From: Campylobacterota bacterium
GTDB taxonomy: Bacteria; Campylobacterota; Campylobacteria; Campylobacterales; Thiovulaceae
DNA length: 64,000 bases
Direction of reading: 5' to 3'
Assembly: GCA_030152305.1 (NCBI GenBank)
Contig: JASKOM010000001.1
Span: 201,174-265,173 of the forward strand
In this document: in pieces, positions 4,064 through 47,941 of the stretch
How the letters are laid out: every line of letters begins with the position of its first letter
Position numbering within the stretch: position 1 is the stretch's first letter
Made by a program: the position numbers and the translations under genes
Notes under the pieces: generated by a model
Databases searched by the model: none
What the model was told of the DNA's origin: nothing
What the model saw: only the letters and a program-made list of their open reading frames with translations

Positions 4064-4214
4064 GATAAATCCTACATATTTTTATTTTATGAATTAAGCG
4101 AATTTTATCAAGATAAATCACAACGATAACGAGACAGTTTGATTATTAATAAAAGTTTTTTTATGCAACCTCATCATACTCTCGGAAACGGTCAGCAACC
4201 ATTCCCTGCAAATT

Positions 4215-4946
4215 TTACATGATCGTTTTTATCTTCCACTTGATTTGATTATATTTACCAACGATCGCAATTCCAAAATCACGACCAGATGAGGTCATCT
4301 TCCAAATGCCATTTTCTCGAACTTGAAAACCTTTGTTTGCCAACATCAAATTAATCTCGACCGCTGATTTATTTATCATTTTGCCTAATTCAGTTGGTAA
4401 AAAGAATTGTGAATCGAGATCGATCTTGAAAGTTTTGAGAGGTGAAGTTCCAAATTGTTGGAGCATGATTTTGTCAAAACGAAATAGAGTTGTCTGTTTT
4501 CGTGTTTCTAAATTTTCAATAAAACCTAACAGCTTGTTTGAATAAATTTCATAATCGTTAAGTTCATTTGTCAGTTTTAGAAAGTCATGATTTTGTGAAG
4601 TTTGTTGTTTTTTAAACTGTTTTTCAACATTAATAAAATATTTTCTCACAGCTCGACCAATTGGATTATTTTCAATCATTGCTAATTCTTTCGCAACATC
4701 AATCGTTACAAGACAATCTCGATATTCAGCATAACCATTTTGTCCATTTTCTCGATGAGTTACTAAACTTTTAGTATGCCAAATAAAGTCTTCGTTTTCA
4801 ATAAACTCAAATTTATTAATTCGATTATTTATCCAGTCGTTAAAACGACTTTTTATATTTAAATGTTCGTGTAATTTTCTAGCTGAAACAAAATTGATTT
4901 TTTCGTTAGAAATCTGATATTCTATAATTTCGAAATTCAAAGGCAA
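4215..4946 (-). CDS. phage-type antirepressor (AntA/Bro-like N-terminal domain plus KilAC-like C-terminal domain)
   Basis: 243 aa. The N-terminus (VSARKLHEHLNIKSRFNDWINNRI...ENEDF) has the AntA/BRO pattern. The C-terminal roughly 60 aa are duplicated at 5388-5572. Confidence 0.65.
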   Translation of the reverse strand: MPLNFEIIEYQISNEKINFVSARKLHEHLNIKSRFNDWINNRINKFEFIENEDFIWHTKSLVTHRENGQNGYAEYRDCLVTIDVAKELAMIENNPIGRAVRKYFINVEKQFKKQQTSQNHDFLKLTNELNDYEIYSNKLLGFIENLETRKQTTLFRFDKIMLQQFGTSPLKTFKIDLDSQFFLPTELGKMINKSAVEINLMLANKGFQVRENGIWKMTSSGRDFGIAIVGKYNQIKWKIKTIM

Positions 4947-5063: not shown

Positions 5064-5288
5064 TTGACATATCAAGATTACGAAATAAAAATAAAAAAAC
5101 TTAATTTATCATCTGGAAAATTAACTAAAATTATGGGAATGGCAAGAACAACACCATCAGCTGTTTGGAAAAAAAAGGGAGATATTCCTATTCCTATTGA
5201 GAGATTTTTAGAAGTTTTGGAAAAATTAACAGAAGATGAAAGAATATTATTTGTTCATCATAAATTAGAAAATTATAAAAATATTTAA
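5064..5288 (+). CDS. small Cro/CI-like helix-turn-helix protein (hypothetical)
   Basis: 74-aa ORF with a TTG start preceded by aaaggagg. The pattern LTKIMGMARTTPSAVWKKKGDIPIPIERFL resembles small phage HTH regulators and the minus-strand ORF at 5589-5848. Confidence 0.4.
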   Translation: MTYQDYEIKIKKLNLSSGKLTKIMGMARTTPSAVWKKKGDIPIPIERFLEVLEKLTEDERILFVHHKLENYKNI

Positions 5289-5326: not shown

Positions 5327-5347
5327 ATTCCGTGCATTGACACGGGA
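5327..5347. terminator. TTCCGTG...CACGGGA hairpin (member of a recurring stem family)
   Basis: attccgtg-cattga-cacggga lies 39 nt downstream of the stop at 5288. The same stem sequence occurs at 8971, 34358 and 48053. Confidence 0.4.
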
Positions 5348-5387
5348 TCTTTTCTCGGAAACGGTCGGCGACCATTCTCTACAAATT

Positions 5388-5572
5388 TTACATGATCGTT
5401 TTTATCTTCCACTTAATCTGGTGATATTTACCAACGATCGCAATTCCAAATTCGCGACCCGATGAGGTCATTTTCCAAATGCCATTTTCTCGAATTTGAT
5501 AACCACGATTTGCCAACATCAAATTAATCTCGACTGGCGATTTATTGATCATTCCTCCAAGTTCGGTAAGTT
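5388..5572 (-). pseudogene. orphan 3' fragment of an antirepressor gene (KilAC-like tail)
   Basis: My translation is LTELGGMINKSPVEINLMLANRGYQIRENGIWKMTSSGREFGIAIVGKYHQIKWKIKTIM*. It is collinear with the last roughly 62 codons of 4215-4946 and has no N-terminal part. The 34 nt after the stop are also duplicated. Confidence 0.7.
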
Positions 5573-5588
5573 ATAAAAAGCAATATTA

Positions 5589-5848
5589 TTAACTTGAAAG
5601 CATTGTTACACGATTTGTAAATTCTTTAAATAATGAAATTGTTGATTTTTGTGTTTCATATTCACTTAAAATTTTCAAATATTGAGATCCACAAGTTGGT
5701 ATTTTTTGACCTGCCCCCAGTTTCTCAATGTTTGTTCAGCTATGCCCGTTTTAATAGCAAGTTCTTTATATGTAATTTTTAATAATTCACATGTTTTTTT
5801 AACAAGATTTTCTTCTTTGTCTTTTTCGGTTTTTTCGACTTCGCTCAA
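5589..5848 (-). CDS. small HTH protein, possibly frameshifted at a G5/C5 run
   Basis: My minus-strand translation from the TTG at 5848 gives MSEVEKTEKDKEENLVKKTCELLKITYKELAIKTGIAEQTLRNWG. The frame then stops after 56 aa, but a shift at ctgcccccag (5711-5720) continues as GAGQKIPTCGSQYLKILSEYETQKS...MLSS* ending at 5589. Confidence 0.35.
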
Positions 5849-5975
5849 GTTCAGTCCTTTTTTTAATTAATTTTTATTTCTCGTAATTTTAATATTTTTG
5901 CAATTTTTATATAAAAATCGTTTCTTGACTCTTTGATAAGATTCTTAAAAATTTGAAAGAAAATAAAATAATAAA

Positions 5976-8966
5976 ATGACTTCCGAAGAAATTAATAGAA
6001 AATTAGCTGATCCGAAACGGCTTTTGACTGATATATATTTTGAATTACAAGAAGCCTTTGAAAATAAATATGGCGAAAATGTTCTTATTTTTCTTGAATT
6101 GGGTAGCTTTTTTGAAATTTATTCGGTTGATAATGAACAGCTCAAAATTGGCAAAGCCCGTGAAGTTGCTGAAATGTTAAATATTCAGCTAACACGAAAA
6201 AATAAAAGTATCGCCGAAAATTCGATAAAAAATCCATTTATGGCTGGTGTTCCAACTGTTTCGTTTGAACGACATTTAAATAGAATTATTTCAGAAGCAA
6301 AATATACGATTGTTCTTATTCGTCAGCGAGGCGAACCGCCTCAAGTTGTTAGATATTTGCATCAAATTATTTCACCCGGAACAAATTTTGATTATTTGTC
6401 TGATAGTAACGAAAATTTTATTGTTGCTCTTTCGATTGATGCACATAAAAATAGCTATTCGATCGGTTATTCGGCTATTGATGTTTCAACTGGTGTTTCG
6501 TTAGTTTCTGAAATTCATAGCAGTATCGAAGATCAAAATTATGCTCTCGATGAGGTTTTTAATTTGTTGCATATTTATAAAAGTTCAGAAATCGTGTTGA
6601 ATTTTTTATCGAAATTTATAAATCAGCAAAAAATTATCGAATATCTCGAAGTGAAAAAAAATTATCATTATTCTGTTCATTCTGGACGAATAAAAATAGA
6701 TTTTCAAAATGAACTTTTTAAACGAGTTTTTAATACAAGTTCGTTTTTATCGCCAATCGAAGAGTTAAATCTTGAACATTTGCCACTTGCTTCTGAATCG
6801 TTGGCAATTTTGATCGAATTTATTTTTCAGCATGATTATAAAATCGTTGAAAGACTTGATCGTCCGCAAATTCTCGAAAATCGTAATCGATTATATTTAG
6901 GCAATAATGCAATTGAACAGTTAGATATTATAAAAAATATAAATGACAACGGTTTATTATCGTTGATTGATAAAAGTTCAACGGCAATGGGCAAAAGATT
7001 ATTAAAAGCTAGACTTTTAAATCCTGTTTCTGATTCGAAAGAGATTCGAGATCGTTTCGCTTTGAATGATCGAGTTTATCCGTTTTTGTCAGAAATCGAA
7101 TCGAATTTAAAAAAAATATATGATCTTGAGCGAATTTCTCGACGAATAAAATTAAAAAAATTACATCCGTTTGAAATAAATTATTTACATATTTCACTTT
7201 TGGCAGTTGTCGAAATTTCAAAACTTGTCAAAAAGAACCTCATCGAAGATTTTCATTTTTCAGAAAGTGAAATTCGTGGCATGATCGATTTAATCGAAAA
7301 TTATTTCGAACTTTCGATAACTCAAAAATATAATATTGACAAAATCGAAGAGAATCTTTTTTTGCATGGTGTCAGTCGCGAAGTTGATCGAATTGAAAAT
7401 GATATTTCAGGTTATATAAAAACTTTGAATTTAATCGTCGAGAAAATAGCAAGTTTATTAAAAACTAAAACGAATAAAAGCGACGGCGAAATGGTCAATT
7501 TGGGTTCTCTCGAAAAAGAAGGCTATTATATTTCGCTAACGGCAAATCGTTTTAATTTAATCGAACGAGATTTTCTCGAAGAAAAAATAATAATAGGCAG
7601 TCGAGAATATTTTTTTAGAGATTTTAAAATAAGAAAATTATCGAACAATGTAAAAATCACAGCTGAAATTATCGATAAATTTTCTGAACAGATTTCAGCT
7701 TCTCAAACTAAATTAGCTTCGTTAATATATGACGAATTTTTAATTCAGTTACATGAAATAGATCAAAAATATTCGATAATTCTAGAAAAAATCGCATATT
7801 TTATTGCCAAAATTGATATTGCAGTTTCAAATGGCAAAGTAAAAAATAGTTTAAAATATTCTCAACCTGAAATTATCGATGTTGATTCTGGTGATAATTT
7901 TTTACAAATTGCAAAATTAAGACATCCGTTAATTGAACGACGAGAATCAGCGGGAATTTTTGTTCCGAATGATATTTTTTTAGGCAAGAAAAAATATTTA
8001 ACAGATCTTGATAATTTTGATAAAAATGTTATCGATGCTACTGAAGATGAACAAATAAATGGCATTTTATTATATGGCATAAATTCGAGTGGCAAATCGT
8101 CATTAATGAAAAGTATCGGAATTGCGGTTATTCTTGCTCAAGGCGGTTTTCCAGTTCCAGCTGAAAGCATGAAATTTTCGTTATTCAAATCGCTTTTTAC
8201 TCGAATTGTTTCTCGAGATAATTTGCAAAAAGGACTTTCAAGTTTTGCCGTCGAAATGGTCGAATTAAAAAATATTTTTAATCGAGCAGGTGAAAAAACT
8301 ATCGTTTTAGGTGATGAGATTTCTCACGGAACTGAAACACTTTCGGGAGTTGCAATCGTTTCAAGTGCAATTATGCGACTTGTCGAAAATAAAACACTTT
8401 TTGTTTTTGCTACACATTTGCATCAATTAACGAAAATCGATGAGGTGCAAAATTTAACGACAGTTGTCAATTTGCATTTAGCCGTAAAATATGATGAAAG
8501 TAGTGATAAATTAATATTTAATCGAAAATTGCAAATTGGAAGCGGAAGTAGTATTTACGGGCTTGAATTCGCTCGTTCGTTGCATATGGATGAAAAGTTT
8601 TTAAAAAATGCGAATTCGATTCGAAAAAAATTAGCCGACGAATATAGCGACATCGAAATGTTAATGCAAAAAAAACAGAGCAAATATAACAGCAATTTAT
8701 ATTTAACGAAATGTATTATTTGTGGCGAAAAAGTAGATGATGTTCATCATATTGCAGAAAAAAAATTATCTCGAAACGGTTTTATTGGTCATTTTTCTAA
8801 AAATCACAAACATAATCTTATTCCACTTTGCAAAAATCATCATATGGCAATTCACGATAAAAAAATTGATGTCAAAGGTTTTATGATGACATCATCAGGT
8901 TTAGAATTGCATTATGAAGATGAGTCTGAACCTGAAACAGAAGAAAAGATAGAAAATAGAAACTAA
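5976..8966 (+). CDS. MutS-family ATPase with C-terminal HNH nuclease (MutS7-like)
   Basis: 996 aa. N-terminal MutS domain-I-like region (FMAGVPTVSFERHLNRII), core/clamp region, Walker A GINSSGKSS, Walker B LGDEISHGTE, and a C-terminal HNH (CIICGEKVDDVHHI...NLIPLCKNHHMAIH). Confidence 0.85.
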   Translation: MTSEEINRKLADPKRLLTDIYFELQEAFENKYGENVLIFLELGSFFEIYSVDNEQLKIGKAREVAEMLNIQLTRKNKSIAENSIKNPFMAGVPTVSFERHLNRIISEAKYTIVLIRQRGEPPQVVRYLHQIISPGTNFDYLSDSNENFIVALSIDAHKNSYSIGYSAIDVSTGVSLVSEIHSSIEDQNYALDEVFNLLHIYKSSEIVLNFLSKFINQQKIIEYLEVKKNYHYSVHSGRIKIDFQNELFKRVFNTSSFLSPIEELNLEHLPLASESLAILIEFIFQHDYKIVERLDRPQILENRNRLYLGNNAIEQLDIIKNINDNGLLSLIDKSSTAMGKRLLKARLLNPVSDSKEIRDRFALNDRVYPFLSEIESNLKKIYDLERISRRIKLKKLHPFEINYLHISLLAVVEISKLVKKNLIEDFHFSESEIRGMIDLIENYFELSITQKYNIDKIEENLFLHGVSREVDRIENDISGYIKTLNLIVEKIASLLKTKTNKSDGEMVNLGSLEKEGYYISLTANRFNLIERDFLEEKIIIGSREYFFRDFKIRKLSNNVKITAEIIDKFSEQISASQTKLASLIYDEFLIQLHEIDQKYSIILEKIAYFIAKIDIAVSNGKVKNSLKYSQPEIIDVDSGDNFLQIAKLRHPLIERRESAGIFVPNDIFLGKKKYLTDLDNFDKNVIDATEDEQINGILLYGINSSGKSSLMKSIGIAVILAQGGFPVPAESMKFSLFKSLFTRIVSRDNLQKGLSSFAVEMVELKNIFNRAGEKTIVLGDEISHGTETLSGVAIVSSAIMRLVENKTLFVFATHLHQLTKIDEVQNLTTVVNLHLAVKYDESSDKLIFNRKLQIGSGSSIYGLEFARSLHMDEKFLKNANSIRKKLADEYSDIEMLMQKKQSKYNSNLYLTKCIICGEKVDDVHHIAEKKLSRNGFIGHFSKNHKHNLIPLCKNHHMAIHDKKIDVKGFMMTSSGLELHYEDESEPETEEKIENRN

Positions 8967-8970: not shown

Positions 8971-8997
8971 ATTCCGTGTTCTAATTTAGCACGGAAT
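8971..8997. terminator. perfect 8-bp hairpin ATTCCGTG-N11-CACGGAAT after the mutS-like gene
   Basis: attccgtg ttctaatttag cacggaat starts 5 nt after the stop at 8966. Confidence 0.55.
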
Positions 8998-9055
8998 CAA
9001 AAAATATTAAAATATAAATACTAAAATTACGATAAATTAAAAGGTTCTTAAAAAA

Positions 9056-11944
9056 ATGATACACAAAAAGATTCTCGAGCGGGAATTAAAAAATATAAAT
9101 GAAATTGAAGTTAGCAGTGCTTTTGCAGGTTTGGAAAAGTTTAAAAACTCAATCGAAAATATCAAAAAAGCAAAAGAAGAAAGTTATCAATACGGTTTTC
9201 TCGAAGACTTTTTTGTAAAAAGCTTAGGCTATATATTAAATCCGTCGCCAAATTATAATTTGACAACTGAATTTAAAAACGAAAGCAACAATAAAAAAGC
9301 TGACGGTTCGATTTTGATAAATGGCAAACCGATCGCTGTTATCGAATTAAAATCAGTTGCAACGAAATCAATGGATAAAATCGTTGATCAAGCATTTAGT
9401 TATAAAAACAACCATCCAAGTTGTCATTATGTTATAACTTCTAATTTTGAAAAAATGCGGTTTTATATCGAATATTCAAATGAATTTATAGAATTTGATT
9501 TGTTTAACTTGCGGTTCGAAGATTTCAAAAAGCTTTATTTGTTGGTTGGGCGAAATTCGATTTTGAACGATTTGCCGAAAAAATGGCGAGACGAATCGAA
9601 ATATAATCAGGTGAATATAGCGAACGAGTTTTATAAAAAATTCTCGAATTTGCGAACCAGACTTTTTGATGAAATTGCAAATATAAATAAAATCGAAAAA
9701 TTAGATGCTCTTTCGCTTTCTCAAAAGTTGCTCGATAGAGCTATTTTTATATTTTTCGCTGGTGATCGAGGTTTAATCGATTCGAAAACGGTTGATGATT
9801 TTATCGCGAGATTTAAAAATGATCTCGAAGGTCGCGATTTATATCATTTTGTCAAGCTTTTATTCAAAGCGATTGATATTGGAAATGCAAAAATTAGAAT
9901 TCCTCCATATAATGGTGGCTTGTTTGCAAATGACGAAATTCTCGATTCGTTGAAAATTAGCGATTCGCTTTTGTTGGAAATATTGAATTTATCGAGTTAC
10001 GATTTTGAAAGTGATATCGATGTTAATATTTTAGGGCATATTTTTGAAAATAGCCTTGATGAACTTGAGAAAATTCGCGAAGATTTAATCGGTGGAAAAT
10101 TTGATTCGAATCGTTCAAAACGAAAACGAGACGGCATTTTTTATACTCCTAATTATATAACTGAATTTATAGTTGAGAATTCAGTTGGTGCAATTTGTGA
10201 AAAGCGAAAAGCTGAACTCGAATTAATTAATTTTGAAGATGCAAGTGAAGAAAAAATAAAAAGCTATTTAGATTTTTTGACAAATTTGAAAATTGTTGAT
10301 CCTGCTTGTGGTTCGGGAGCATTTTTAAATATGGCTTTTAACTATTTATTTGTTGAATATAAACATTGTTATGATATTTTAAACAATTTTGCGATGAAAA
10401 AAGGCGATTTATTTTTGAGTTCTGATTTTGATGTTTCGATTCTCGAGAATAATTTGTTTGGTGTTGATTTGAATGCTGAAGCGGTTGAAATTGCGAAATT
10501 GTCGCTTTGGTTGAAAACGGCAAAACGAAACAGAAAATTAACTGATTTGAATAAAAATATAAAAGTTGGTAATTCACTTATAAGTCATTCTGAATCTCAA
10601 ACATTAAAACAAGTTACAAAAGCTTTTGATTGGCAAAATGAATTTCCTGATATTTTTGCAAAAGGCGGTTTTGATATCGTAATCGGAAATCCGCCGTATG
10701 GTGCAAATATTGAACACGAAAAGACATTTTTTGAAATTCAATCTGGCGAAAGTGCAATTTTATTTATGCAACTTGCTCGTCAATTGTTAAAAAATAATGG
10801 AATTGCTGGTTTTATTGTTCCAAAACCTTTTCTTTATTCTTCGAGTTGGGAAGAAATTAGATCTGTTTTGAAAGAAGAAATTTCTCATATTGTTGATTGT
10901 GGCAAAGTTTGGGATGAAGTAAAATTAGAACAGGTGATATATATTTCTCATAAGTTAAATAAAATTGATAATTATAAAAATTACCAATTGGAAGAAACAA
11001 AATTTAAAGAATTATCAACAGTAAAAAAAGACCTCATCGAAAAATTTGGATTTTTTGTAAATGGAGTTAATCAGAGAGAAATAGAAATTGCTTTGAAAAT
11101 TAAAAAGCAGTTAAATAATTTGTTTGATATTTCAGCTGAATGTAGTCGTGGCGGAGCATTTCAACATGCAATCAATTCAACTGGAGAAATTCAAGTTTTA
11201 GGCGGAATTAATTTAGCAAGATATGAAATTAAAGATGTCAAAGGTTTTATTTCTTCAGATTTTGAAATTTCAAATGATTCTTTTATTAAAGCTAATTCGA
11301 TATTAGTTCAGAGAATTATTGCTCATATTCAAAATCCAACTGATCACATTAAATTGATAGGAACAATTAGCGATAACTTAAATAATATTGCCATTGTGAA
11401 TACAATTTACCAAATCACATTTGATGAAAAATATTCTAATAAATATATTCTCGCTTTACTTCATTCAAATTTAATAAATTGGTTTATTTATCGTTTTGTA
11501 TTCGCAAAAGCTATTAGAACAATGGATTTATCGAATCATGTAATAAAACGAATCCCAATTCCTGAAATTTCAGAAAATGAACAAAAACCGTTCGTCGAGC
11601 GAGTTGATAAATTGGTTGAACTTTATGCTCAACTTCAGCAAACCAAAAACGAATTTCTCGAAACTCTCGAACTCGAAAAGATTCCGCAAAAACTTGATAA
11701 TTTTGCAAAACTCGAATTTGACGAATTCATCATCGAATTATCAAAAGCGAAAAAAATAAAATTGTCTGACAAAAAATTAGAACGGGAATTTAAAAAAAGC
11801 TGGAAAAATATATTCGACGAAGATAAATCAAAAGTTCAAAACCTGCTCTCGCAAATTTCAAAAATCGAACACGAAATCGATCGTGAAGTTTATAAACTTT
11901 ATGCTTTAAACGAAGATGAAATAAAAATCATCGAGAATATATAA
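9056..11944 (+). CDS. Type IIG restriction-modification enzyme (fused PD-(D/E)xK nuclease, N6-adenine methyltransferase and specificity region)
   Basis: 962 aa. Nuclease-like DGSILINGKPIAVIELKS, methyltransferase motif I VDPACGSGAFL, motif IV GNPPYG, and a C-terminal tail (VYKLYALNEDEIKIIENI) typical of Eco57I/MmeI-like and PglX-like enzymes. Confidence 0.85.
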   Translation: MIHKKILERELKNINEIEVSSAFAGLEKFKNSIENIKKAKEESYQYGFLEDFFVKSLGYILNPSPNYNLTTEFKNESNNKKADGSILINGKPIAVIELKSVATKSMDKIVDQAFSYKNNHPSCHYVITSNFEKMRFYIEYSNEFIEFDLFNLRFEDFKKLYLLVGRNSILNDLPKKWRDESKYNQVNIANEFYKKFSNLRTRLFDEIANINKIEKLDALSLSQKLLDRAIFIFFAGDRGLIDSKTVDDFIARFKNDLEGRDLYHFVKLLFKAIDIGNAKIRIPPYNGGLFANDEILDSLKISDSLLLEILNLSSYDFESDIDVNILGHIFENSLDELEKIREDLIGGKFDSNRSKRKRDGIFYTPNYITEFIVENSVGAICEKRKAELELINFEDASEEKIKSYLDFLTNLKIVDPACGSGAFLNMAFNYLFVEYKHCYDILNNFAMKKGDLFLSSDFDVSILENNLFGVDLNAEAVEIAKLSLWLKTAKRNRKLTDLNKNIKVGNSLISHSESQTLKQVTKAFDWQNEFPDIFAKGGFDIVIGNPPYGANIEHEKTFFEIQSGESAILFMQLARQLLKNNGIAGFIVPKPFLYSSSWEEIRSVLKEEISHIVDCGKVWDEVKLEQVIYISHKLNKIDNYKNYQLEETKFKELSTVKKDLIEKFGFFVNGVNQREIEIALKIKKQLNNLFDISAECSRGGAFQHAINSTGEIQVLGGINLARYEIKDVKGFISSDFEISNDSFIKANSILVQRIIAHIQNPTDHIKLIGTISDNLNNIAIVNTIYQITFDEKYSNKYILALLHSNLINWFIYRFVFAKAIRTMDLSNHVIKRIPIPEISENEQKPFVERVDKLVELYAQLQQTKNEFLETLELEKIPQKLDNFAKLEFDEFIIELSKAKKIKLSDKKLEREFKKSWKNIFDEDKSKVQNLLSQISKIEHEIDREVYKLYALNEDEIKIIENI
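11631..11944 (+). repeat. copy 1 of a 314-bp direct repeat (3' end of the Type IIG gene)
   Basis: Aligns without gaps to 14265-14578 (offset 2634). About 5 mismatches in the first roughly 270 bp by hand alignment; the last roughly 45 bp are clearly diverged. Confidence 0.9.
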
Positions 11945-11963
11945 AATTCTTAAGTTTTCTTTT

Positions 11964-12030
11964 CTTCGATGATGTTTAGTTTTTATTAATTAAAACCTCA
12001 TCGGGGAATTTGGGATAGAATTACAGCAAA
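11964..12030. repeat. junction repeat copy a (imperfect GATGATGT/ACCTCATC hairpin plus G/A-rich tail)
   Basis: ttcgatgatgtttagtttttattaattaaaacctcatcggggaatttgggataga. Homologous to 14158-14230 and more loosely to 30731-30822. Probably the terminator of the Type IIG gene. Confidence 0.55.
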
Positions 12031-12052
12031 ATATAACTAGCAAGATAAAAAT

Positions 12053-12580
12053 ATGAGACAAGAAAAAATTAATTATATACAAGCAGTTGTAACAGAAATA
12101 AGAAAGTATTTTCAATTAAAAGATTTTTTATCAAGAGAAGATTTAACTAATTTAGTGGAAAAATTAGAAGGTAGTTTAGAATTTCAATTTGACTTAGATG
12201 TTGATGCTAAAATAGAAAGAATAGATAAAAATTTTAAGATTACTATTAAACCGTCTAACTTAGCATTAAGAGACAACTTTAGTATAGCTCATGAGTTGGG
12301 GCATTTATTTTTACATATGGGTTATCTAATAGATAATAACATGTGGATGAACTCTAAGCTTAGATATGATCGTTTTGGTTATTCTCAAGAAGAATTTGAA
12401 GCAAATGAGTTTGCAGGTAATTTACTTATGCAAGAACATTTGTTTATTAAAGAATTTAGAAACAATTATGACTCTAAACAGCAAGTAGTTAATCTAAAAA
12501 AAATGAGCAAAATATTTAATGTTTCTCCAAAAGCAATTGAAGTTCGTGCCAAAAATATAGGTTTGATTAAACAGTGTTAG
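12053..12580 (+). CDS. ImmA/IrrE-family (COG2856-like) zinc metallopeptidase
   Basis: 175 aa. HEXXH in SIAHELGHLFLH, followed by the family-typical EEFEANEFAGNLLM. The stop overlaps the GTG start of the next ORF (gtgttag). Confidence 0.75.
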   Translation: MRQEKINYIQAVVTEIRKYFQLKDFLSREDLTNLVEKLEGSLEFQFDLDVDAKIERIDKNFKITIKPSNLALRDNFSIAHELGHLFLHMGYLIDNNMWMNSKLRYDRFGYSQEEFEANEFAGNLLMQEHLFIKEFRNNYDSKQQVVNLKKMSKIFNVSPKAIEVRAKNIGLIKQC

Positions 12581-13200
12581 AAGATTTAAGCAATAACTTA
12601 CAAACTGTCAATCGAGAACATACTAATAAAGATGAGTCTGGAGTATTCGTATTTTTCTCTTTTGATCTTGTTAATTCAACACTGTTTAAAACATTACATC
12701 AAAATAATTGGTTTGTTTTTATTAAAGAATTTTATGATTCCATCATATCTATTCGAAAACATGAACCTACCATTACATTATGGAAATATGTTGGTGATGA
12801 GGTCTTATTTTATAAAAAAATATTAGACAAAAACGAAATTTATAATTTATTATTAAAAACTAGAGAAATCATAGATTATACAGAGCGAAAACTACAAGAA
12901 ATTGATCTTATAGAACAAGAATCAAATAAATGTAAAACAAATTTAGATATAAAACTATATGTCAAAGCAACTTTATGGATTGCAAAAGCTTCAAAAAATG
13001 TAAAAGGATCAAAAAATATTGTTATTGATACTGAAAAAGGTCTTGATTTTATAGGAGAAGATATTGATTTAGGCTTTAGAATATCTAAATATTCATTTGA
13101 TTCAAAAATAGTTCTTGATGCAATAATCACTTATATGCTGATCAAACAGGAACATGAAATAAAAAAGAAATATCATATATCAATAAGGCACATATATTAA
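12574..13200 (+). CDS. class III nucleotidyl-cyclase-like domain protein (5' part of a frameshifted gene)
   Basis: 208 aa. FFSFDLVNST matches the FaDivGfT metal-Asp strand, WKYVGDEVLFY matches the K-x-iGD strand, and FIGEDIDLGFRISKYSFDSKIVL matches the G-x-x-VN-x-A-x-R segment. The final cyclase strands continue in the +1 frame from 13187. Confidence 0.5.
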   Translation: MLEDLSNNLQTVNREHTNKDESGVFVFFSFDLVNSTLFKTLHQNNWFVFIKEFYDSIISIRKHEPTITLWKYVGDEVLFYKKILDKNEIYNLLLKTREIIDYTERKLQEIDLIEQESNKCKTNLDIKLYVKATLWIAKASKNVKGSKNIVIDTEKGLDFIGEDIDLGFRISKYSFDSKIVLDAIITYMLIKQEHEIKKKYHISIRHIY

Positions 13201-13288
13201 AATCGTTTCATTTGAAGAGTTAAAAGGTGTTTGGAACAGTAGAAAATATCCCATCATTTGGTATGACGAATCGTGGGATATTCAAAAG

Positions 13289-13900
13289 ATGTTTAAATAT
13301 GATGATAGATTTAATAATAAAATCGTTGAAAATATTATAAATGGTTCTTTTTCTAAATATTCAAATATTATAGATTTAGAGCATATTTTAAAAGATTTAA
13401 ATAAGCTTGATTTAGTTCAAGATTTAGAATTAACAATTAAGAATACTAAAAAGACAAAACCTATTTTAGAAAAGAAATTATCAGAAATACATTGTGTAGC
13501 TATCAGCTTCTATGAAACAAAAGTATTAATTGGTAAACGAAAAGCAAATAAAGAACTATTGCCAAATGTATGGGATTTTGGTTGTGCAAAAATGGGATTT
13601 AAGGATACATTTCAAGATGCAATAAAACGAGATTATAAAACGGATTTCAATGTAGATTTAATTTTAGAAGAAAATGATTTAACACCTATTGCAACATATA
13701 CAATAGAAAAATCTTCTGTTTCTGGTGTAATATTTGTGGCTAAAATTCATGACATTAGTATATTAAAATCTAATAAACATAGTGAATCTAAAATGTTAGA
13801 TATTGCTGAAGTTAAAGATTTCATAAATAATAATGAAACTATTCCAAATTTTGAATCTACTATAAATAAAGCATACGAATTATTCATAAAAAAATTTTAA
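13289..13900 (+). CDS. 3' part of the same gene: end of the cyclase domain, linker, and a degenerate Nudix-like domain
   Basis: This frame is already open from 13187 (GTYIKIVSFEELKGVWNSRKYPIIWYDESW...). The C-terminal VLIGKRKANKELLPNVWDFGCAKMGFKDTFQDAIKRDYKTDFNV follows the Nudix layout, but the Nudix-box glutamates are largely replaced (RDYKTD instead of RExxEE). Confidence 0.4.
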   Translation: MFKYDDRFNNKIVENIINGSFSKYSNIIDLEHILKDLNKLDLVQDLELTIKNTKKTKPILEKKLSEIHCVAISFYETKVLIGKRKANKELLPNVWDFGCAKMGFKDTFQDAIKRDYKTDFNVDLILEENDLTPIATYTIEKSSVSGVIFVAKIHDISILKSNKHSESKMLDIAEVKDFINNNETIPNFESTINKAYELFIKKF

Positions 13901-14157
13901 TTTAAAAATTAAATAGAGATAAATCAGATGTTATCAGAGAATTAATTGAAGAATTTGCTAAAACATCAGAATTTAATAGCTTTATTGAGCATATTGAAAA
14001 GTGGTTGTTAAACCGAAAAGAAGCTTTAAAACTTTAATCTCCAAAAATATTAAAATTAAATTAACATAAGAAATTTGTCATTTTAAAGAATTAAAAATTA
14101 TTGATTATTCTTGGCTAAATCGCTGAAATTTGGCATTACGGCATATATTTTTTATTT

Positions 14158-14230
14158 ATTCGATGAGGTCTAGTTTTTATGAAATCTCATCGAAGAGAAT
14201 TTGAGATTTGAGAGTAGCGAAGTTTTATAG
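14158..14230. repeat. junction repeat copy b (GATGAGGT / ATCTCATC hairpin plus GAGAATTTGAGATTTGAGAG tail)
   Basis: ttcgatgaggtctagtttttatgaaatctcatcgaagagaatttgagatttgagagtagcgaagtt. Homologous to copy a and to 30731-30822. Confidence 0.55.
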
Positions 14231-14264
14231 TTTGTAAAAAAGACTGTTCTAAATTTAAATTATA

Positions 14265-14578
14265 AAGTTCAGCAAACCAAAAACGAATTTCTCGAAACTC
14301 TCGAACTCGAAAAGATTCCGCAAAAACTTGATAATTTTGCAAAACTCGAATTTGACGAATTTATCATCGAATTATCAAAAGCGAAAAAACTAAAATTGTC
14401 TGACAAAAAATTAGAACGGGAATTTAAAAAAAGCTGGAAAAATATATTCGACGAAGATAAATCAAAAGTTCAAAATCTGCTCTCACAAATTTCAAAAATC
14501 GAACACGAAATCGATCGTGAAGTTTATAAACTTTATGGCTTAACTCGAAATGAAATAGAAATCGTGGAGAAAATATAA
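14265..14578 (+). pseudogene. orphan 3' fragment of a Type IIG RM gene (copy 2 of the 314-bp direct repeat)
   Basis: In-frame translation is ...QQTKNEFLETLELEKIPQKLDNFAKLEFDEFIIELSKAKKLKLSDKKLEREFKK...VYKLYGLTRNEIEIVEKI*. It has no upstream methyltransferase or nuclease part. The track ORF 14396-14578 is its tail. Confidence 0.85.
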
Positions 14579-14664
14579 AAAGCTAAATCGCAACTTACAA
14601 ATCATAATTCTTAGATCCCGAAACAAGCTCCAGTAACTTGTTTCTTGATTGTTGTTTTTTTTAA

Positions 14665-28454: not shown

Positions 28455-29558
28455 ATGAACAAATATAAAACTATTGATCTATTTTGCGGAATAGGTGGTA
28501 TCAGAAAAGGTTTTGAATTAACAGGTCATTTTGACAATATTTTATCTGCCGAAATTGACAAATATGCCTGTGCGACTTACAAACATCTTTATGGCGACAA
28601 TCCATTTAATGATGTAACAAGTGATAAATTTAAAGAAAAAATACAGCAATCTTATTATGATGTTTTACTTGCGGGTTTTCCGTGTCAGTCCTTTTCAATA
28701 GCAGGAGATAAAAAAGGATTTCGAGATACTACAAGAGGGACACTATTTTTTCATATAGCAGATATTATCAAAATTAGTAAGCCAAAAGCTTTTTTGCTTG
28801 AAAATGTTGAAGGTTTATATAGACATGATAAAGGAAATACTTTTAAGATTATTATTAATACTTTGGTTAAAGAGTTGAATTATAAAGTTGTTGGTGTTGA
28901 TGAGGTCGATGGAGAATTGAAATACATTTCAGAATCTTTTTTACGAAAAACAACAGATTTTGGCTTACCACAAAAAAGAGTTAGAACTTATATCGTTGGA
29001 TTTTTAAATGAAATAGTTCCTGATAATTATAAATTAAAACCTTTGCCACATAAAAATAATAAAACGATTTTTAAAAACTTAAATAATCTACTAGAACAAG
29101 ATGTATCTGCAAAATATTATTTGTCAGAACAGTATATAAATACACTTGAAAAACATAAAGCAACTCATAAATCTAAAGGTAATGGATTCGGATATAAAAT
29201 TGTTAATATTGGAGAAAATCCTATTGCAAATACAATTTTGGCAACAGGTGGCAGTGGAAAAGAAAGAAATTTAATTTTTCAAGAAAAACCTGAATACAAT
29301 GGTCAAATGTTTGGTAATAAACAAAGTCCAATTAATGACCAAGGTATAAGAACAATGACACCAAATGAATGGGCAAGGCTTCAAGGATTTAAAGATTATG
29401 CTTTTATGCAAAATGGTATTGATACTTTTTCATTTCCTCAAGAAGTTAGTGAAACCCAACAATATAAACAGTTAGGTAACAGTGTTTCAATTCCTGTTAT
29501 TGAAGAATTAGCAAATTATATTTTTCAAACTTTAGAGGATTTACAAAATGGGATTTAA
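28455..29558 (+). CDS. DNA (cytosine-5)-methyltransferase
   Basis: 367 aa. Motif I DLFCGIGG, motif IV GFPCQSFS, motif VI ENV, motif VIII QKRVR, motif X GNSVSIPV. Confidence 0.93.
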   Translation: MNKYKTIDLFCGIGGIRKGFELTGHFDNILSAEIDKYACATYKHLYGDNPFNDVTSDKFKEKIQQSYYDVLLAGFPCQSFSIAGDKKGFRDTTRGTLFFHIADIIKISKPKAFLLENVEGLYRHDKGNTFKIIINTLVKELNYKVVGVDEVDGELKYISESFLRKTTDFGLPQKRVRTYIVGFLNEIVPDNYKLKPLPHKNNKTIFKNLNNLLEQDVSAKYYLSEQYINTLEKHKATHKSKGNGFGYKIVNIGENPIANTILATGGSGKERNLIFQEKPEYNGQMFGNKQSPINDQGIRTMTPNEWARLQGFKDYAFMQNGIDTFSFPQEVSETQQYKQLGNSVSIPVIEELANYIFQTLEDLQNGI

Positions 29559-30572
29559 TAAAGGAGAGTGGTCTGAATTATATACAATTTTATATTTACT
29601 TAAAAATCAAAATTTAATTATAGTTGATGAAAACTTGCAAATTATAACAGACAAATTATTTAAATTATTGGAAATACTTTTCAGTGATAAGAAATATAAA
29701 ATAGATAATAGTTATGTAATAAAAATTTTTAACAATAGTGATAAAAGTCAAAATTATCAAATTAGCTATTTATCTGAACAAATGAATATATTATTAAATA
29801 AAATAGTTAGTCATCAACAAGCCAACGGTTCATTTCAAATTGCTGAAATTCAACCTTTAATTAACGATTTTTTGATGGTAAAAAACCTAAAGGTAGTTCA
29901 AATATAAAGGCAGATTTGGAAACTAAGGTTTTAGACAACCATCGTAATATGGCAATATTGCTTAAATATAATATTAAGTCAAACTTGGGAAATCCTGCAA
30001 CATTATTAAATGCTTCTAATCATACGAATTTTATCTATGAAGTAACTAATATTAATGATTCTATTATGTATCAATCTAATGCTATAAGCACTCATAAAAA
30101 ACTATTGGATAAATACAATTTCTTAAAAAACAACAAAGCTAGTATTAATTTTGTTAATACAGAAAGCGAAGTTTTTAAAAATAACTTAAAATTAATTGAC
30201 TCAAAGCTTGACGAAATACTGGCTAAGATACTATTAATATCTTATGATAATAACAACAAAGATATAAATGAACTTTTGTCAATAATTTCAGTTAATGATT
30301 ATGAACATATGTTTTATAAAAAGAAAATAGGTGATTTTGCAAATGCGGTTACTTTTGGAATGAGAGCAGGAGAAATATGGAATGGCATAAATGAAGTTAA
30401 TGGAGGTATTTTACTTGTTACAAAAACAGGAGAAGTATATTTACTTGATTTAATTTATTACAAATATATTGTTGATAGATATTTAATTGATAACATTAAG
30501 CTAGATAGTCCTAGTTCTACTAGATATAAAATGTTTGATATTTATAAAGAAAATGATAGATATTTTTTTTAA
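29548..30572 (+). pseudogene. HpaII-like Type II restriction endonuclease, split by a frameshift at a T-run (about 29868-29874)
   Basis: ORF1 starts with NKGEWSELYTILYLLK. ORF2's frame is open from 29865 and reads FFDGKKPKGSSNIKADLETKV...NIKSNLGNPATLLNASNHTNFIYEV. Both halves match the HpaII-family pattern as I recall it. The frames differ by one nucleotide around gattttttgatgg. Confidence 0.6.
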
Positions 30573-34490: not shown

Positions 34491-36125
34491 TTATTTGCTG
34501 ATTTGTTTTATAAAATAGCCTTTTAACGGTTCAAGAATTGTTAAAGAATCAATTGAGCCGTTGTAATCTTTATAACAAATTTCCCAATTCTGTTTTTCTG
34601 AATTAAATCCGAAGATTACATAATTTTGATTATTAAATATGTTTGTTAAATTATCAGTTGAAGCGGTAACGATAGGTTTTAATTGATATTTATTGCTAAA
34701 AGATTCATCATCATTTATAATTAAACTTTCTGGATTCATTATGTTTAATAGTGAAATATTTGTATCTTTTTCAGTGAAAACCCAAGCTCCTTCGCCAGAA
34801 TGGAGATAATCCGTAAAAATATTGCCTGTTTTTAAAATAGATTGCAAATGTTGATTATTCGAAAAACCGTAATATTTACCGTCTCTTAAAATCCAGATAA
34901 ATTGATCTTGAAACATTGCTGTTAAATTGAAATTTTCTTTAAATGGATTGCCGATGAGGTTCCAATTTGCTTTTAATTCAAATTGATTTGCAATGTTTTT
35001 CGCGACTAAATTACTTGACATTTCATAATTTGAAATATTTAACAAACCAATTGTATCGTTTGTAGACACGACTTCATTATTTTCATGTTGTGTTGCAAAG
35101 TGTAAATATTGCTTATTTGAACCTAACAAATAATTATTTGTATTGTTATTAAAAAAGAAAAAACCATATTTGCCTATATTTTGAATTTTTGTAATATTTT
35201 TAATTAATGGCTTTGGATAGCCTTTTGAACCATCGTTAAAATTATCTATATTTAATAAATTTAGTCCAAATTCTCGCATTGAATTATTAAAATCCTGATC
35301 ATATTTTTCGATTAAAGATAAAAAAGTTGTGTTAAGTTCGATATTTTCTAAAGGATATTTTATAATCGAAAGATTATGATCTCGCTCGATAAAATATTTG
35401 AAAAATATTGATTTCCCATATTCGATTGAGCCATTTTTAAATTCCAAGCCTGAATTTAAGTTATCTGTGTAATTATCAATCAACGAAATATAATCGTTAT
35501 TATCTGGAAATACCTCATCTTCAATTGTTACAGCTGAACCTTCAAGAAACCATATATTTTTTGTCCAAGCTTGATTATCCATTTTATTTTTATCAAAATA
35601 TGAAAACTGAACAGCATGAAAAAATTCGTGAGCAATTGTAACTTCCAATTGTTTCAAAGTTATAACTGGATTGATTACTATATATGCAACACCGTTTGAA
35701 TATGTGTCAGTATAACCTGCATAATTACCATTAATAGTCATATATTTTGATTTGTCAAAATTATATGCATCTCTATTTGCAATATAAATATCTATTTTAT
35801 ATTTATCGCTATCAACAGGTTTTTTAAATTGAAGTTCATCAATAATTTTACTGTGAGATTTTTCTGCGATTGCCAAAATAGAATTTGCTAAATCTTTGTT
35901 TAAATTTGAGCTTTTATAAGAATTGCCTAAAATAACTCGAAAATTGCCAGAAGTAAAAAAGAAATTTTTTGAGTCGGAAGAGATATTTGAATCATGAAAC
36001 GATGGATAATTAGATATATAACTTAAGATTCTTGTTTCATTATGATTATTATTTTGTTCAAGTGGCTGATCAACAATAGCAAAAGCCAAAGTTGAAATTG
36101 TTGATATTAATAAAATTTGTTTCAT
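34491..36125 (-). CDS. secreted protein with an HExxH zinc-metalloprotease motif
   Basis: 544 aa. Signal peptide, and HEFFHAVQ embedded in TIAHEFFHAVQFSYFD. Last gene of the surface-protein cluster. Confidence 0.5.
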   Translation of the reverse strand: MKQILLISTISTLAFAIVDQPLEQNNNHNETRILSYISNYPSFHDSNISSDSKNFFFTSGNFRVILGNSYKSSNLNKDLANSILAIAEKSHSKIIDELQFKKPVDSDKYKIDIYIANRDAYNFDKSKYMTINGNYAGYTDTYSNGVAYIVINPVITLKQLEVTIAHEFFHAVQFSYFDKNKMDNQAWTKNIWFLEGSAVTIEDEVFPDNNDYISLIDNYTDNLNSGLEFKNGSIEYGKSIFFKYFIERDHNLSIIKYPLENIELNTTFLSLIEKYDQDFNNSMREFGLNLLNIDNFNDGSKGYPKPLIKNITKIQNIGKYGFFFFNNNTNNYLLGSNKQYLHFATQHENNEVVSTNDTIGLLNISNYEMSSNLVAKNIANQFELKANWNLIGNPFKENFNLTAMFQDQFIWILRDGKYYGFSNNQHLQSILKTGNIFTDYLHSGEGAWVFTEKDTNISLLNIMNPESLIINDDESFSNKYQLKPIVTASTDNLTNIFNNQNYVIFGFNSEKQNWEICYKDYNGSIDSLTILEPLKGYFIKQISK

Positions 36126-47638: not shown

Positions 47639-47941
47639 TTAATAATAATTATAAGACAATTTAAAATTAATTGATTCTAAATTGTCTTTAATAGAATTAC
47701 ATTCTATTGTTTCTAGTCCTCTGTAAATAAACTCCATCTGTGATTTTAATAACATTTTTATAGATGGATGTTTTACTACTAATATTAATATCCCATTTTT
47801 AAATTCAAAACTGTTTATTTTTTGTGAAATTTCTTTATCAATGTTTTTTAATATATTTTCAAAACATTTATAATTAGATAATTTTTTTAAGTTAGGAATT
47901 TTATATATTAAATGAATCAATTCTTTGGTATCGTGCAACAT
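47639..47941 (-). CDS. hypothetical protein (possibly DUF721-like)
   Basis: 100 aa. The pattern GILILVVKHPSIKMLLKSQMEFI resembles DUF721, but this is weak. Confidence 0.35.
   Translation of the reverse strand: MLHDTKELIHLIYKIPNLKKLSNYKCFENILKNIDKEISQKINSFEFKNGILILVVKHPSIKMLLKSQMEFIYRGLETIECNSIKDNLESINFKLSYNYY

What the first reader, a model, noticed from the sequence alone, without database searches (positions are those of the whole stretch)
5976..8966. MutS7-type MutS-HNH fusion sitting in a restriction/prophage-remnant island
The 996-aa protein combines MutS domain I-like, core and ABC ATPase regions with a C-terminal HNH nuclease. That is the architecture described for the MutS7 subfamily, reported from epsilonproteobacteria, giant viruses (Mimiviridae) and octocoral mitochondria. 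Its function in bacteria is not established. Here it is not with housekeeping repair genes. It lies between phage-regulator remnants and a Type IIG RM enzyme, followed by its own hairpin terminator. The neighbourhood suggests a role in conflict with foreign DNA, for example cutting heteroduplex or mismatched incoming DNA, rather than canonical mismatch repair. In an organism that seems to have uptake-sequence-like motifs, a MutS-nuclease could also police transformation.
Basis: partly seen in the sequence, partly recalled or inferred. Interest (0 to 1): 0.55.

Follow-up and report, generated by a model that had tools for sequence, protein, structure and literature searches.

The report
Ordinary MutS7 mismatch-repair gene, chance neighbours
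The gene is an intact member of the already described MutS7 family (a mismatch sensor fused to an HNH nuclease) that is widespread and mostly sits among housekeeping genes in this bacterial phylum, so the restriction and phage-remnant genes beside it here look like local insertions, not a sign of a defence role.

Summary
Window 5976-8966 (+) is an intact 996-aa ORF with MutS domains I, II (weak), III and V plus a C-terminal HNH-type domain. It lies between degraded AntA/HTH phage-regulator genes and an MmeI-like Type IIG enzyme. A confident AlphaFold model superposes on the whole of E. coli MutS. Its best viral matches are giant-virus MutS proteins, including one named subfamily 7. The mismatch Phe-x-Glu, Walker A/B and HNH Cys/His/Asn residues are invariant or nearly so across 100 relatives at 32-84% identity.

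The defence reading is not supported. At least 442 Campylobacterota species genomes carry a relative. In 47 of 79 loci it sits next to the same housekeeping blocks. No other locus has the Type IIG gene. In close Thiovulum-clade relatives it lies in contexts such as radA-mutS7-glmM or argJ-trx-mutS7. Defence-model hits are as frequent 6 kb or more away as within 3 kb. PADLOC does not hit the protein.

Best reading: the phylum's self-contained mismatch-repair enzyme, standing in for MutS/MutL/MutH, which published genome analysis reports absent. This function is inferred, not shown. One lead remains: a Dam-like methyltransferase sits directly upstream of MutS7 in two related lineages. Already known kind; low interest.

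The parts
5976..8966 (+). MutS7 gene, 996 aa, intact
   Evidence: ORF list and translation. Full-length homologues at 51-85% identity. GC 0.300 against 0.297 for the window.
5871..5975 (+). Upstream intergenic region, likely its own promoter (inferred)
   Evidence: Promoter-like hexamers at 5925-5952 and 5945-5972, not above chance. The gene upstream is divergent.
6075..6389 (+). MutS domain I (mismatch binding), aa 34-138. The Phe45-x-Glu47 motif is at 6108-6116.
   Evidence: Pfam MutS_I 1.3e-9. phmmer alignment puts GSFFEIY on E. coli GDFYELF (F36-x-E38). F45 is invariant and E47 at least 90% conserved in 100 relatives.
6414..6824 (+). MutS domain II (connector), aa 147-283
   Evidence: Pfam MutS_II 7.4e-5, 23.6 bits against a cut-off of 25. 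The model aligns over the whole of E. coli MutS.
6906..7829 (+). MutS domain III (core/levers), aa 311-618, with an embedded domain IV-like clamp (beta-strands aa ~508-562, nt ~7497-7661)
   Evidence: Pfam MutS_III 2.4e-22. AlphaFold secondary structure shows long helices 468-499 and 564-626 flanking strands 508-562, pLDDT around 90. Foldseek TM 0.84 to 1e3m.
8067..8633 (+). MutS domain V (ABC-type ATPase), aa 698-886. Walker A is at 8076-8099 (GINSSGKS). Walker B D780-E781 is at 8313-8318.
   Evidence: Pfam MutS_V 2.9e-42. N703, G706, K707, D780, E781 and H814 are invariant in 100 relatives.
8673..8888 (+). C-terminal HNH-type nuclease domain, aa 900-971 (CxxC ... HH ... N ... CxxHH ... H). 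The putative catalytic His925 is at 8748-8750.
   Evidence: Weak Pfam and PHROG HNH hits. C913, H924, H925, N947, C952 and H956 are invariant; C916 and H960 are at least 90% conserved. The model shows strand 922-925, strand 948-951 and helix 953-960.
8972..8996 (+). Palindromic hairpin TTCCGTG...CACGGAA 5 nt after the stop codon; possible non-canonical terminator
   Evidence: The same stem recurs at 5328-5345 and 48055-48073, each just after a stop codon. There is no T-run, and the terminator scan did not call it.
4215..4946 (-). Context only: AntA-type antirepressor gene
   Evidence: Pfam AntA 5.7e-21. PHROG anti-repressor 8e-35. 40% identical to paralogues around MutS7 in L001.
5391..5830 (-). 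Context only: degraded copy of an HTH_3 + AntA/KilA-N cassette. It comprises a C-terminal fragment at 5391-5579 and a frameshifted HTH at 5598-5830.
   Evidence: tblastn with L001 cassette proteins. 227-nt direct repeat 4180-4406 / 5353-5579, 85% identical.
9056..11944 (+). Context only: MmeI-like Type IIG restriction-modification enzyme, 962 aa, with a promoter-like motif of its own at 9021-9037
   Evidence: PADLOC PDLC03609 4.8e-163. Pfam Eco57I, MmeI_Mtase, MmeI_hel and TaqI_C. No homologue within 10 kb of MutS7 in 81 other loci. Motif.
11946..14579 (+). Context only: low-GC cassette (M78 peptidase at 12053-12580; split gene of unknown function at 12574-13900). It ends in a 95%-identical duplicate of the last ~100 codons of the Type IIG gene (14265-14579).
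   Evidence: Pfam Peptidase_M78. PADLOC capP/RmrA-like. phrog_6174 halves. 300-nt direct repeat D1 and its translation. GC 0.22-0.26.

Best explanation
This is the Thiovulum-lineage orthologue of the MutS7 family. It is a chromosomal, vertically inherited gene of Campylobacterota, and most probably the cell's post-replicative mismatch-repair enzyme.

Proposed mechanism, inferred by homology with E. coli MutS:
1. A dimer clamps DNA with domains I and IV.
2. Phe45 and Glu47 recognise the mismatch.
3. ATP binding in domain V converts the protein to a sliding or activated state.
4. The fused HNH domain then cuts DNA near the mismatch. This replaces the MutL/MutH incision step, which the phylum is reported to lack.
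5. Helicase, exonuclease, polymerase and ligase finish the repair.

How the new strand is chosen is unknown.

The AntA/HTH remnants, the Type IIG enzyme and the M78 cassette beside the gene are lineage-specific insertions with their own promoter-like and terminator-like signals. They are not functionally linked to it.
For: Shown here:
- Intact ORF with MutS I-II-III-V plus HNH.
- Model with pLDDT 89.9 and pTM 0.84. It superposes on mismatch-bound E. coli MutS over about 900 columns, TM 0.84, E about 1e-51.
- Best viral matches are giant-virus MutS proteins, including 'MutS subfamily 7' of Tetraselmis virus (4.7e-64). MutS8 scores only 4.9e-14.
- F45, Walker A/B, H814 and the HNH Cys/His/Asn residues are invariant, and E47 is at least 90% conserved, over 100 relatives at 32-84% identity. 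This argues for selection on mismatch binding, ATPase and nuclease activity together.
- At least 442 species genomes of Campylobacterota encode a relative.
- 47 of 79 loci keep a type I secretion block and/or a dapE-like/thioredoxin-like/ridA block within six genes.
- Thiovulum-clade relatives place it in radA-mutS7-glmM, argB-mutS7, and ychF...argJ-trx-mutS7 contexts.
- Gene GC equals the window GC.
- No PADLOC hit.
- No excess of defence hits near the gene compared with far from it.

From the literature:
- Epsilonproteobacteria lack MutL and MutH (PMC2147049).
- MutS7 is proposed to act as a self-contained repair enzyme (PMC3166940).
Against: - No MutS7 from any organism was found to have been characterised biochemically or genetically in the held literature. 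Mismatch repair is therefore an inference.
- No strand-discrimination signal is evident.
- Four of ten Thiovulum-clade loci have a DNA methyltransferase or restriction gene within about two genes of MutS7 (window, L002, L082, L084). My rough estimate puts this within chance for such restriction-rich genomes (P about 0.2), but with so few independent lineages a weak association cannot be excluded.
Confidence: 0.62

Rival explanations
1. Barrier against foreign DNA. MutS7 cuts mismatched heteroduplexes formed by incoming phage, plasmid or transforming DNA, and works with or like the neighbouring restriction enzyme.
For: - In the window it lies beside a Type IIG enzyme and phage-regulator remnants.
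- L082/L083 have C5 methyltransferase, KAP NTPase and D12 methyltransferase upstream. L084 has a D12 methyltransferase upstream. L072 has a Type III system upstream.
- An ABC-type ATPase plus HNH also occurs in some defence systems (own knowledge: Septu).
Against: - No PADLOC model hits the protein.
- The Type IIG gene is absent from all 81 other loci.
- Housekeeping synteny is conserved in most loci.
- Five of ten close relatives have no defence gene nearby.
- Restriction-type hits are about equal near and far: about 4 against 3-4 per 150 proteins.
- A second restriction system sits between panC and clpB in the same window, so such genes are scattered everywhere in this genome.
- The hairpin and a separate promoter-like motif lie between MutS7 and the Type IIG gene.
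Confidence: 0.08
2. Anti-recombination guard. MutS7 mainly rejects or destroys mismatched recombination intermediates, limiting recombination with diverged DNA during natural transformation, rather than correcting replication errors.
For: - MutS1 and MutS2 proteins have such roles in other bacteria (PMC3200294).
- Many Campylobacterota are naturally competent (own knowledge).
- In L088, radA, a recombination gene, ends 4 bp before mutS7 on the same strand.
Against: - MutS2-type anti-recombination proteins lack domain I and the Phe-x-Glu motif. MutS7 keeps both invariant, as mismatch-repair MutS proteins do.
- The radA adjacency is seen in one lineage only.
- This role could coexist with mismatch repair, as it does for MutS1.
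Confidence: 0.15
3. Mismatch-triggered double-strand break. The two HNH domains of a dimer cut both strands at a mismatch or lesion, and homologous recombination with a sister copy restores the sequence. This is the model proposed for plant MSH1.
For: - Convergent architecture with plant MSH1 (MutS plus GIY-YIG) and the break-and-recombine model proposed for it (bioRxiv 10.1101/2020.02.13.947598).
- It needs no strand-discrimination signal.
- Thiovulum are very large cells (PMC9938260) and may be polyploid (own inference), which would supply templates.
Against: - No direct evidence.
- HNH domains usually nick one strand per active site (own knowledge).
- Nothing in the sequence tells nicking from double cutting.
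Confidence: 0.12

Closest known systems
MutS7 subfamily (Mimivirus and other giant-virus MutS, octocoral mitochondrial mtMutS, epsilonproteobacterial MutS; Ogata et al. 2011, Bilewitch and Degnan 2011)
   Same: - Domain order I-III-V plus C-terminal HNH.
- Conserved Phe-x-Glu, Walker motifs and HNH residues.
- Host phylum.
- Best structural matches are giant-virus MutS, including one named subfamily 7 (PMC3166940).
   Different: The bacterial protein also keeps recognisable domain II and a domain IV-like clamp. It superposes on the whole of E. coli MutS, whereas octocoral proteins are reported to lack detectable domains II and IV (PMC3166940, PMC8438181). Nothing else sets it apart.
Canonical MutS1 (E. 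coli / Thermus MutS) with MutL and MutH
   Same: Overall fold (TM 0.84), mismatch-binding Phe-x-Glu, ABC ATPase.
   Different: - About 20% identity.
- Scores below both NCBIfam MutS1 cut-offs: 375.8 against 480, and 289.8 against 641.7.
- Carries its own nuclease.
- The MutL and MutH partners are reported absent from the phylum (PMC2147049).
MutS2 (MutS core plus Smr nuclease)
   Same: A MutS ATPase fused to a C-terminal nuclease.
   Different: MutS2 lacks domain I and has Smr, not HNH. It matches only aa ~589-902 here, at 116.7 bits against a cut-off of 400. Its known roles are anti-recombination and ribosome rescue (PMC3200294; PDB names).
Plant-type MSH1 (MutS plus GIY-YIG)
   Same: Independent fusion of a mismatch-sensing MutS to an endonuclease, with a scattered distribution across eukaryotes, bacteria and giant viruses.
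   Different: Different nuclease fold and a separate MutS lineage (PMC12292046).
Defence systems that pair an ABC-type ATPase with an HNH nuclease (for example Septu; own knowledge)
   Same: ATPase plus HNH.
   Different: No PADLOC model hits the protein. MutS7 has the full mismatch-binding and clamp apparatus, and is not island-associated.

Membership tests
MutS7 | [quoted passage not shown] | tested here: met
   Pfam hits in that order. The HNH hits are individually below gathering, but are backed by PHROG HNH families, invariant residues and the beta-beta-alpha pattern in the model.
MutS7 | Conserved mismatch-recognition residues (Phe-x-Glu of domain I) | tested here: met
   F45-x-E47 aligns to E. 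coli F36-x-E38. F45 is invariant and E47 at least 90% conserved in 100 relatives.
MutS7 | Closer to named MutS7 proteins than to MutS1, MutS2 or MutS8 | tested here: met
   - Foldseek: Tetraselmis virus 'MutS subfamily 7' 4.7e-64; Pithovirus MutS 2.6e-77, TM 0.80, aligned over 1104 columns.
- Same virus's MutS8: 4.9e-14.
- E. coli MutS: about 1e-51 and 20% identity, in a different library.
- Below the NCBIfam MutS1 and MutS2 cut-offs.
MutS7 | Monophyly with Mimivirus and octocoral MutS in a tree with MutS1-MutS8 representatives | not tested
Representative hits carry almost no names.
MutS7 | Bacterial members are from Epsilonproteobacteria / Campylobacterota | tested here: met
   All 80 listed genome loci are Campylobacterota or unnamed MAGs. 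The nearest is Ca. Thiovulum karukerense at 71%. The closest protein, at 85%, is on a 1.72-Mb NCBI chromosome whose size matches the closed Movile Cave Thiovulum genome.
Canonical MutS1 | Reaches the curated equivalog score of NCBIfam MutS models | tested here: not met
   NF003810: 375.8 against 480. TIGR01070: 289.8 against 641.7.
Canonical MutS1 | Works with MutL (and MutH or a MutL endonuclease) encoded in the same genome | not testable with these tools
   Only 64 kb of the genome is available and none of these genes is in it. The literature reports their absence from the phylum (PMC2147049).
MutS2 | No domain I; C-terminal Smr domain | tested here: not met
   Domain I is present and there is no Smr hit.
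Known anti-phage defence systems | Protein matches a model of a known or candidate defence protein | tested here: not met
   0 PADLOC families at E up to 0.01.
Known anti-phage defence systems | Gene is enriched next to other defence genes and is variably present | tested here: not met
   - Near and far samples of 150 proteins give similar restriction/defence hits.
- Housekeeping synteny is conserved in 47 of 79 loci.
- At least 442 species carry the gene.
- Within-species presence or absence was not tested.

The most novel reading that the evidence does not exclude
In part of the Thiovulum clade, MutS7 may work with an adjacent DNA methyltransferase. In L084 and L082/L083 a Dam-like (D12 class) N6-adenine methyltransferase with no restriction partner ends 17-34 bp upstream of MutS7 on the same strand, and the two methyltransferases are 74% identical. 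This could be a two-gene, methyl-directed mismatch-repair module in which the HNH domain plays the part of MutH. Alternatively it could be a methylation-gated nuclease that cuts mismatched unmethylated incoming DNA. In the window the neighbouring adenine methyltransferase activity would be that of the Type IIG enzyme.
Probability: 0.07. Interest if true: 0.7.

Novelty: already known. Interest (0 to 1): 0.22.

Why it matters
Bacterial MutS7 has never been tested experimentally, as far as the held literature shows. Campylobacterota are usually described as lacking mismatch repair. If MutS7 is a one-protein repair system, free-living members such as Sulfurimonas, Arcobacter and Thiovulum would have a repair capacity that Helicobacter and Campylobacter are thought to lack. 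It would also serve as a simple model for the giant-virus and coral-mitochondrial enzymes. This window adds nothing new to that question beyond one more orthologue. Its main value is negative: gene neighbourhood in a restriction-rich, rearranged genome is a poor guide to function.

Tried and rejected
- A first AlphaFold run with 20 close homologues gave a poor model (pLDDT 61.6) and was discarded. The run with 100 diverse sequences succeeded.
- The terminator scan found nothing after the stop codon. The hairpin was found by reading and folding the spacer.
- A sequence search of the HNH tail against PDB gave nothing significant.
- Cluster look-ups of ten distant representatives gave almost no names, so no labelled tree could be built.
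- The metagenome scan with the single protein returned only five loci.
- Ogata et al. 2011 and Nakagawa et al. 2007 are not held in the paper library.
- Poly-G/C tracts: none of 7 nt or more in the window. About 0.2 are expected by chance in 64 kb, so this says nothing about repair.
- The D12 methyltransferase, KAP NTPase and Type IIG proteins were searched against all loci. There is no D12 remnant upstream of MutS7 in the window.
- GC and GC3 do not set MutS7 apart.
- No tRNA or Rfam element marks an island boundary.
- The 40-nt inverted repeat bracketing MutS7 (reached by 1 of 1000 shuffles) was considered as a sign of a mobile or invertible cassette. I rejected that in favour of a shared promoter-like motif, because each copy lies in the same orientation just upstream of the gene that follows it, and a third copy does the same at 47938-47954.
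Full report
**Observation.** The ORF at 5976-8966 (+) is real and intact: ATG start, 996 codons, one stop.
- Pfam finds MutS_I (aa 34-138), MutS_II (147-283, just under the gathering score), MutS_III (311-618) and MutS_V (698-886).
- It also finds three weak HNH-type hits on aa 900-971. PHROG 'HNH endonuclease' families hit the same tail.
- NCBIfam's MutS1 equivalog models match end to end but below their cut-offs (375.8 against 480; 289.8 against 641.7). MutS2 matches only the ATPase half.
There is an AntA antirepressor at 4215-4946 (-). Upstream of the gene lie a truncated AntA-family C-terminal fragment (5391-5579) and a frameshifted HTH_3 gene (5598-5830). Downstream is a 962-aa MmeI-like Type IIG enzyme at 9056-11944.

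**Structure and conserved residues.**
- A first model from 20 close homologues was poor.
- With 100 sequences at 32-84% identity, the model reached pLDDT 89.9 and pTM 0.84.
- It superposes on mismatch-bound E. coli MutS over about 900 columns (TM 0.84 on the target, E about 1e-51). All five MutS1 domains are therefore present in the fold, including a clamp formed by strands 508-562 between two long lever helices.
- Against predicted viral structures, the best matches are giant-virus MutS proteins: Pithovirus LCPAC404 (2.6e-77, TM 0.80) and Tetraselmis virus 'MutS subfamily 7' (4.7e-64). The same virus's MutS8 scores 4.9e-14.
- phmmer aligns GSFFEIY with E. coli GDFYELF, so F45-x-E47 corresponds to the mismatch-reading F36-x-E38.
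- Over the 100 sequences, F45, N703/G706/K707 (Walker A), D780/E781 (Walker B), H814, and C913/H924/H925/N947/C952/H956 are invariant. E47, C916 and H960 are at least 90% conserved.
- The tail folds as strand 922-925, strand 948-951 and helix 953-960, the pattern of an HNH metal finger.
- Selection thus acts jointly on mismatch binding, ATP use and the nuclease.

**Distribution.**
- The protein search gave full-length homologues from 85% down to about 51% identity. Where named, they are labelled Campylobacterota, Sulfurimonas, Epsilonproteobacteria or 'MutS-related protein'.
- An exhaustive search of cluster representatives found 3333 proteins at E up to 1e-30. Most of the 150 listed cover the query through the HNH tail.
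All 80 listed are Campylobacterota or unnamed MAGs, the nearest being Ca. Thiovulum karukerense at 71%.
- The 85% homologue lies on a 1,724,914-bp NCBI chromosome. Its size matches the closed Movile Cave Thiovulum genome (PMC9938260). The window therefore comes from a Thiovulum relative.

**Neighbourhood test.** I called ORFs in 81 loci plus the window and clustered all proteins.
- Two blocks recur. Upstream is a LuxR/HlyD/ABC/TolC-OmpA type I secretion set. Downstream is a small lipoprotein, a dapE-like M20 peptidase, a thioredoxin-like protein and RidA.
- 47 of 79 loci keep at least one block within six genes.
- Of the window's ten nearest genes, nine are singletons in this clustering; the exception is AntA, shared only with L001. 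No other locus has the Type IIG gene.
- Large variable neighbours elsewhere are mostly transport, signalling or metabolic genes. One Type III restriction system occurs in L072.
- I scanned 150 random proteins within 3 kb of MutS7 and 150 lying 6 kb or more away against PADLOC. Near: the window's Type IIG enzyme, a Type III pair and a C5 methyltransferase. Far: a Type IIG enzyme, Type I methyltransferase hits, a reverse transcriptase and others.
- The commonest 'defence' hit, PD-T4-2_B (9 near, 4 far), equals the RidA cluster counts exactly, so it reflects a housekeeping gene.
- There is no enrichment near MutS7.

**Close relatives.** Ten Thiovulum-clade loci at 63-85% identity show very different contexts.

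| Locus | Context of MutS7 |
|---|---|
| L001 | Arrays of HTH_3 + KilA-N/AntA/pRha cassettes and a Na/Pi transporter |
| L002 | C5 methyltransferase upstream |
| L082/L083 | C5 methyltransferase - KAP NTPase - D12 methyltransferase - MutS7 |
| L084 | D12 methyltransferase - MutS7 |
| L085 | Signalling and housekeeping genes |
| L086 | Chemotaxis genes |
| L088 | hemA-radA-mutS7-glmM-lspA, with 4 bp between radA and mutS7 |
| L091 | argB-mutS7-small methyltransferase-flgK |
| L093 | ychF-comM-trx-lgt-argJ-trx-mutS7 |
| window | AntA/HTH remnants upstream, Type IIG enzyme downstream |

- The window shares only loose anchors with these loci. ychF lies within 5 kb of MutS7, as in L093. A tadA-like deaminase is 56% identical to one near MutS7 in L082.
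- The lineage is heavily rearranged, and the flanks of MutS7 are filled differently in each genome.
- Restriction genes are common in this genome. A C5 methyltransferase and a broken HpaII endonuclease sit between panC and clpB in the same window.
- Assuming about 5% of genes are restriction-related, three independent methyltransferase or restriction adjacencies in roughly nine lineages is within chance (my rough estimate, P about 0.2).

**Local signals.**
- The spacer after MutS7 holds the hairpin 8972-8996. It has no T-run and was not called by the scan.
- The same stem occurs at 5328 and 48055, each 5-40 nt after a stop codon. There are 5 pattern matches against 0 expected.
- A 17-nt motif, CTAAAATTACGAKAAAT, lies just upstream of the Type IIG start (9021-9037), of the HTH remnant (5876-5892, minus strand), and at the start codon (47941) of a minus-strand ORF (47938-47954).
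- This motif explains the 40-nt inverted repeat that brackets MutS7, which was reached by 1 of 1000 shuffles.
- MutS7 and the Type IIG gene therefore look like separate transcription units.
- The cassette 11946-14579 (M78 peptidase, split unknown gene, GC 0.22-0.26) ends in a 95% copy of the last ~100 codons of the Type IIG gene. This marks a nested insertion or recombination event.
- MutS7 has the GC content of the window (0.300 against 0.297).
- The window has no tRNA gene and no Rfam match.

**Interpretation.** The gene is an ordinary orthologue of the MutS7 subfamily.
- That subfamily is defined by domains I, III and V plus HNH, and has been known from epsilonproteobacteria, giant viruses and octocoral mitochondria since 2009-2011 (PMC3166940, PMC8438181, PMC12292046).
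- The published proposal is a self-contained mismatch-repair enzyme in which HNH replaces MutL/MutH incision.
- Epsilonproteobacteria are reported to lack MutL and MutH (PMC2147049).
- My data fit this proposal: joint conservation of all three activities, wide vertical distribution, and housekeeping synteny.
- I found no experimental work on any MutS7, so the function remains inferred.
The last is the least supported.

**Residual lead.** A D12 (Dam-like) methyltransferase with no restriction partner ends 17-34 bp before MutS7, on the same strand, in two lineages. The two methyltransferases are 74% identical. This could hint at methyl-directed strand choice. It is absent from the window, from L001 and L002, and from the other loci searched.

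**Verdict.** The family assignment is right. The defence interpretation is not supported. The kind is already known and interest is low.

Noticed in passing
window 5328-5345, 8972-8996, 48055-48073: Three hairpins share the stem TTCCGTG...CACGG(A/G)A. Each lies 5-40 nt after a stop codon (ORF 5064-5288, MutS7, and ORF 48094-48810 on the minus strand). There are 5 pattern matches against 0 expected. None has a T-run, so this may be this genome's non-canonical terminator or a REP-like element.
   Followed up: partly
window 5876-5892 (-), 9021-9037 (+), 47938-47954 (-): The motif CTAAAATTACGAKAAAT lies just upstream of the frameshifted HTH gene and the Type IIG gene, and at the start codon (47941) of a 100-aa minus-strand ORF. 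The first two copies form a 40-nt inverted repeat (5858-5897 / 9016-9055) that brackets MutS7; 1 of 1000 shuffles reached it. Probably a shared promoter or operator.
   Followed up: partly
window 11631-11930 and 14265-14564 (extending to 11945 / 14579): A 300-nt direct repeat, 95% identical. The second copy encodes a near-identical duplicate of the last ~100 residues of the Type IIG enzyme. The repeats bracket the low-GC M78-peptidase cassette, suggesting a nested insertion or cassette exchange at the 3' end of the restriction gene.
   Followed up: partly
window 12574-13200 and 13289-13900: Two adjacent ORFs match the N-terminal (33-249) and C-terminal (300-509) halves of one PHROG family of unknown function (phrog_6174). 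This looks like a split, probably dead gene. The second ORF also hits PADLOC candidate PDC-S07.
   Followed up: no
window 28455-30572: A second restriction system lies between panC and clpB. It has an intact C5 cytosine methyltransferase (28455-29558) and an HpaII-type endonuclease that covers only model positions 126-351 of 359 (29916-30572), with a 119-aa ORF before it. The endonuclease is likely broken.
   Followed up: no
L001 6121-9674 and 15898-19998: In the closest relative, MutS7 is surrounded by at least six tandem two-gene cassettes. Each has a small HTH_3 gene plus a ~210-250-aa protein with a variable N-terminal domain (KilA-N, AntA, pRha). Several of these proteins share a C-terminal part that also matches the window's AntA gene and its truncated copy. 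An expanding gene family of unknown role.
   Followed up: partly
L084 8932-9984; L082 8996-9967; L083 6887-7858: A D12-class (Dam-like) adenine methyltransferase with no adjacent restriction enzyme ends 17-34 bp before MutS7 on the same strand, in two Thiovulum-clade lineages. The two methyltransferases are 74% identical. In L082 it is the last gene of an overlapping C5 methyltransferase - KAP NTPase - D12 set.
   Followed up: partly
L088 4630-8968: radA (Zn ribbon, RecA-like ATPase, ChlI-like domain) ends 4 bp before mutS7 on the same strand, inside a hemA-radA-mutS7-glmM-lspA run. This is the only case seen of MutS7 next to another DNA repair gene.
   Followed up: no
window 36258-41423 (-) and 34491-36125 (-): ORFs of 1720 aa and 543 aa with no Pfam match at E up to 1e-5.
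   Followed up: no
L047 and L050: Two contigs of the same MAG (Sulfurimonas sp. D96SM.bin.22) each carry a full-length MutS7. This could be strain mixture in the bin or a true duplication.
   Followed up: no
proteins P0132, P0161, P0229, P0269: Some family representatives are about 1320-1410 aa and match the query in two stretches split near aa 670-710. This would fit an insertion such as an intein in the ATPase domain, as reported for giant-virus MutS genes (PMC12292046).
   Followed up: no
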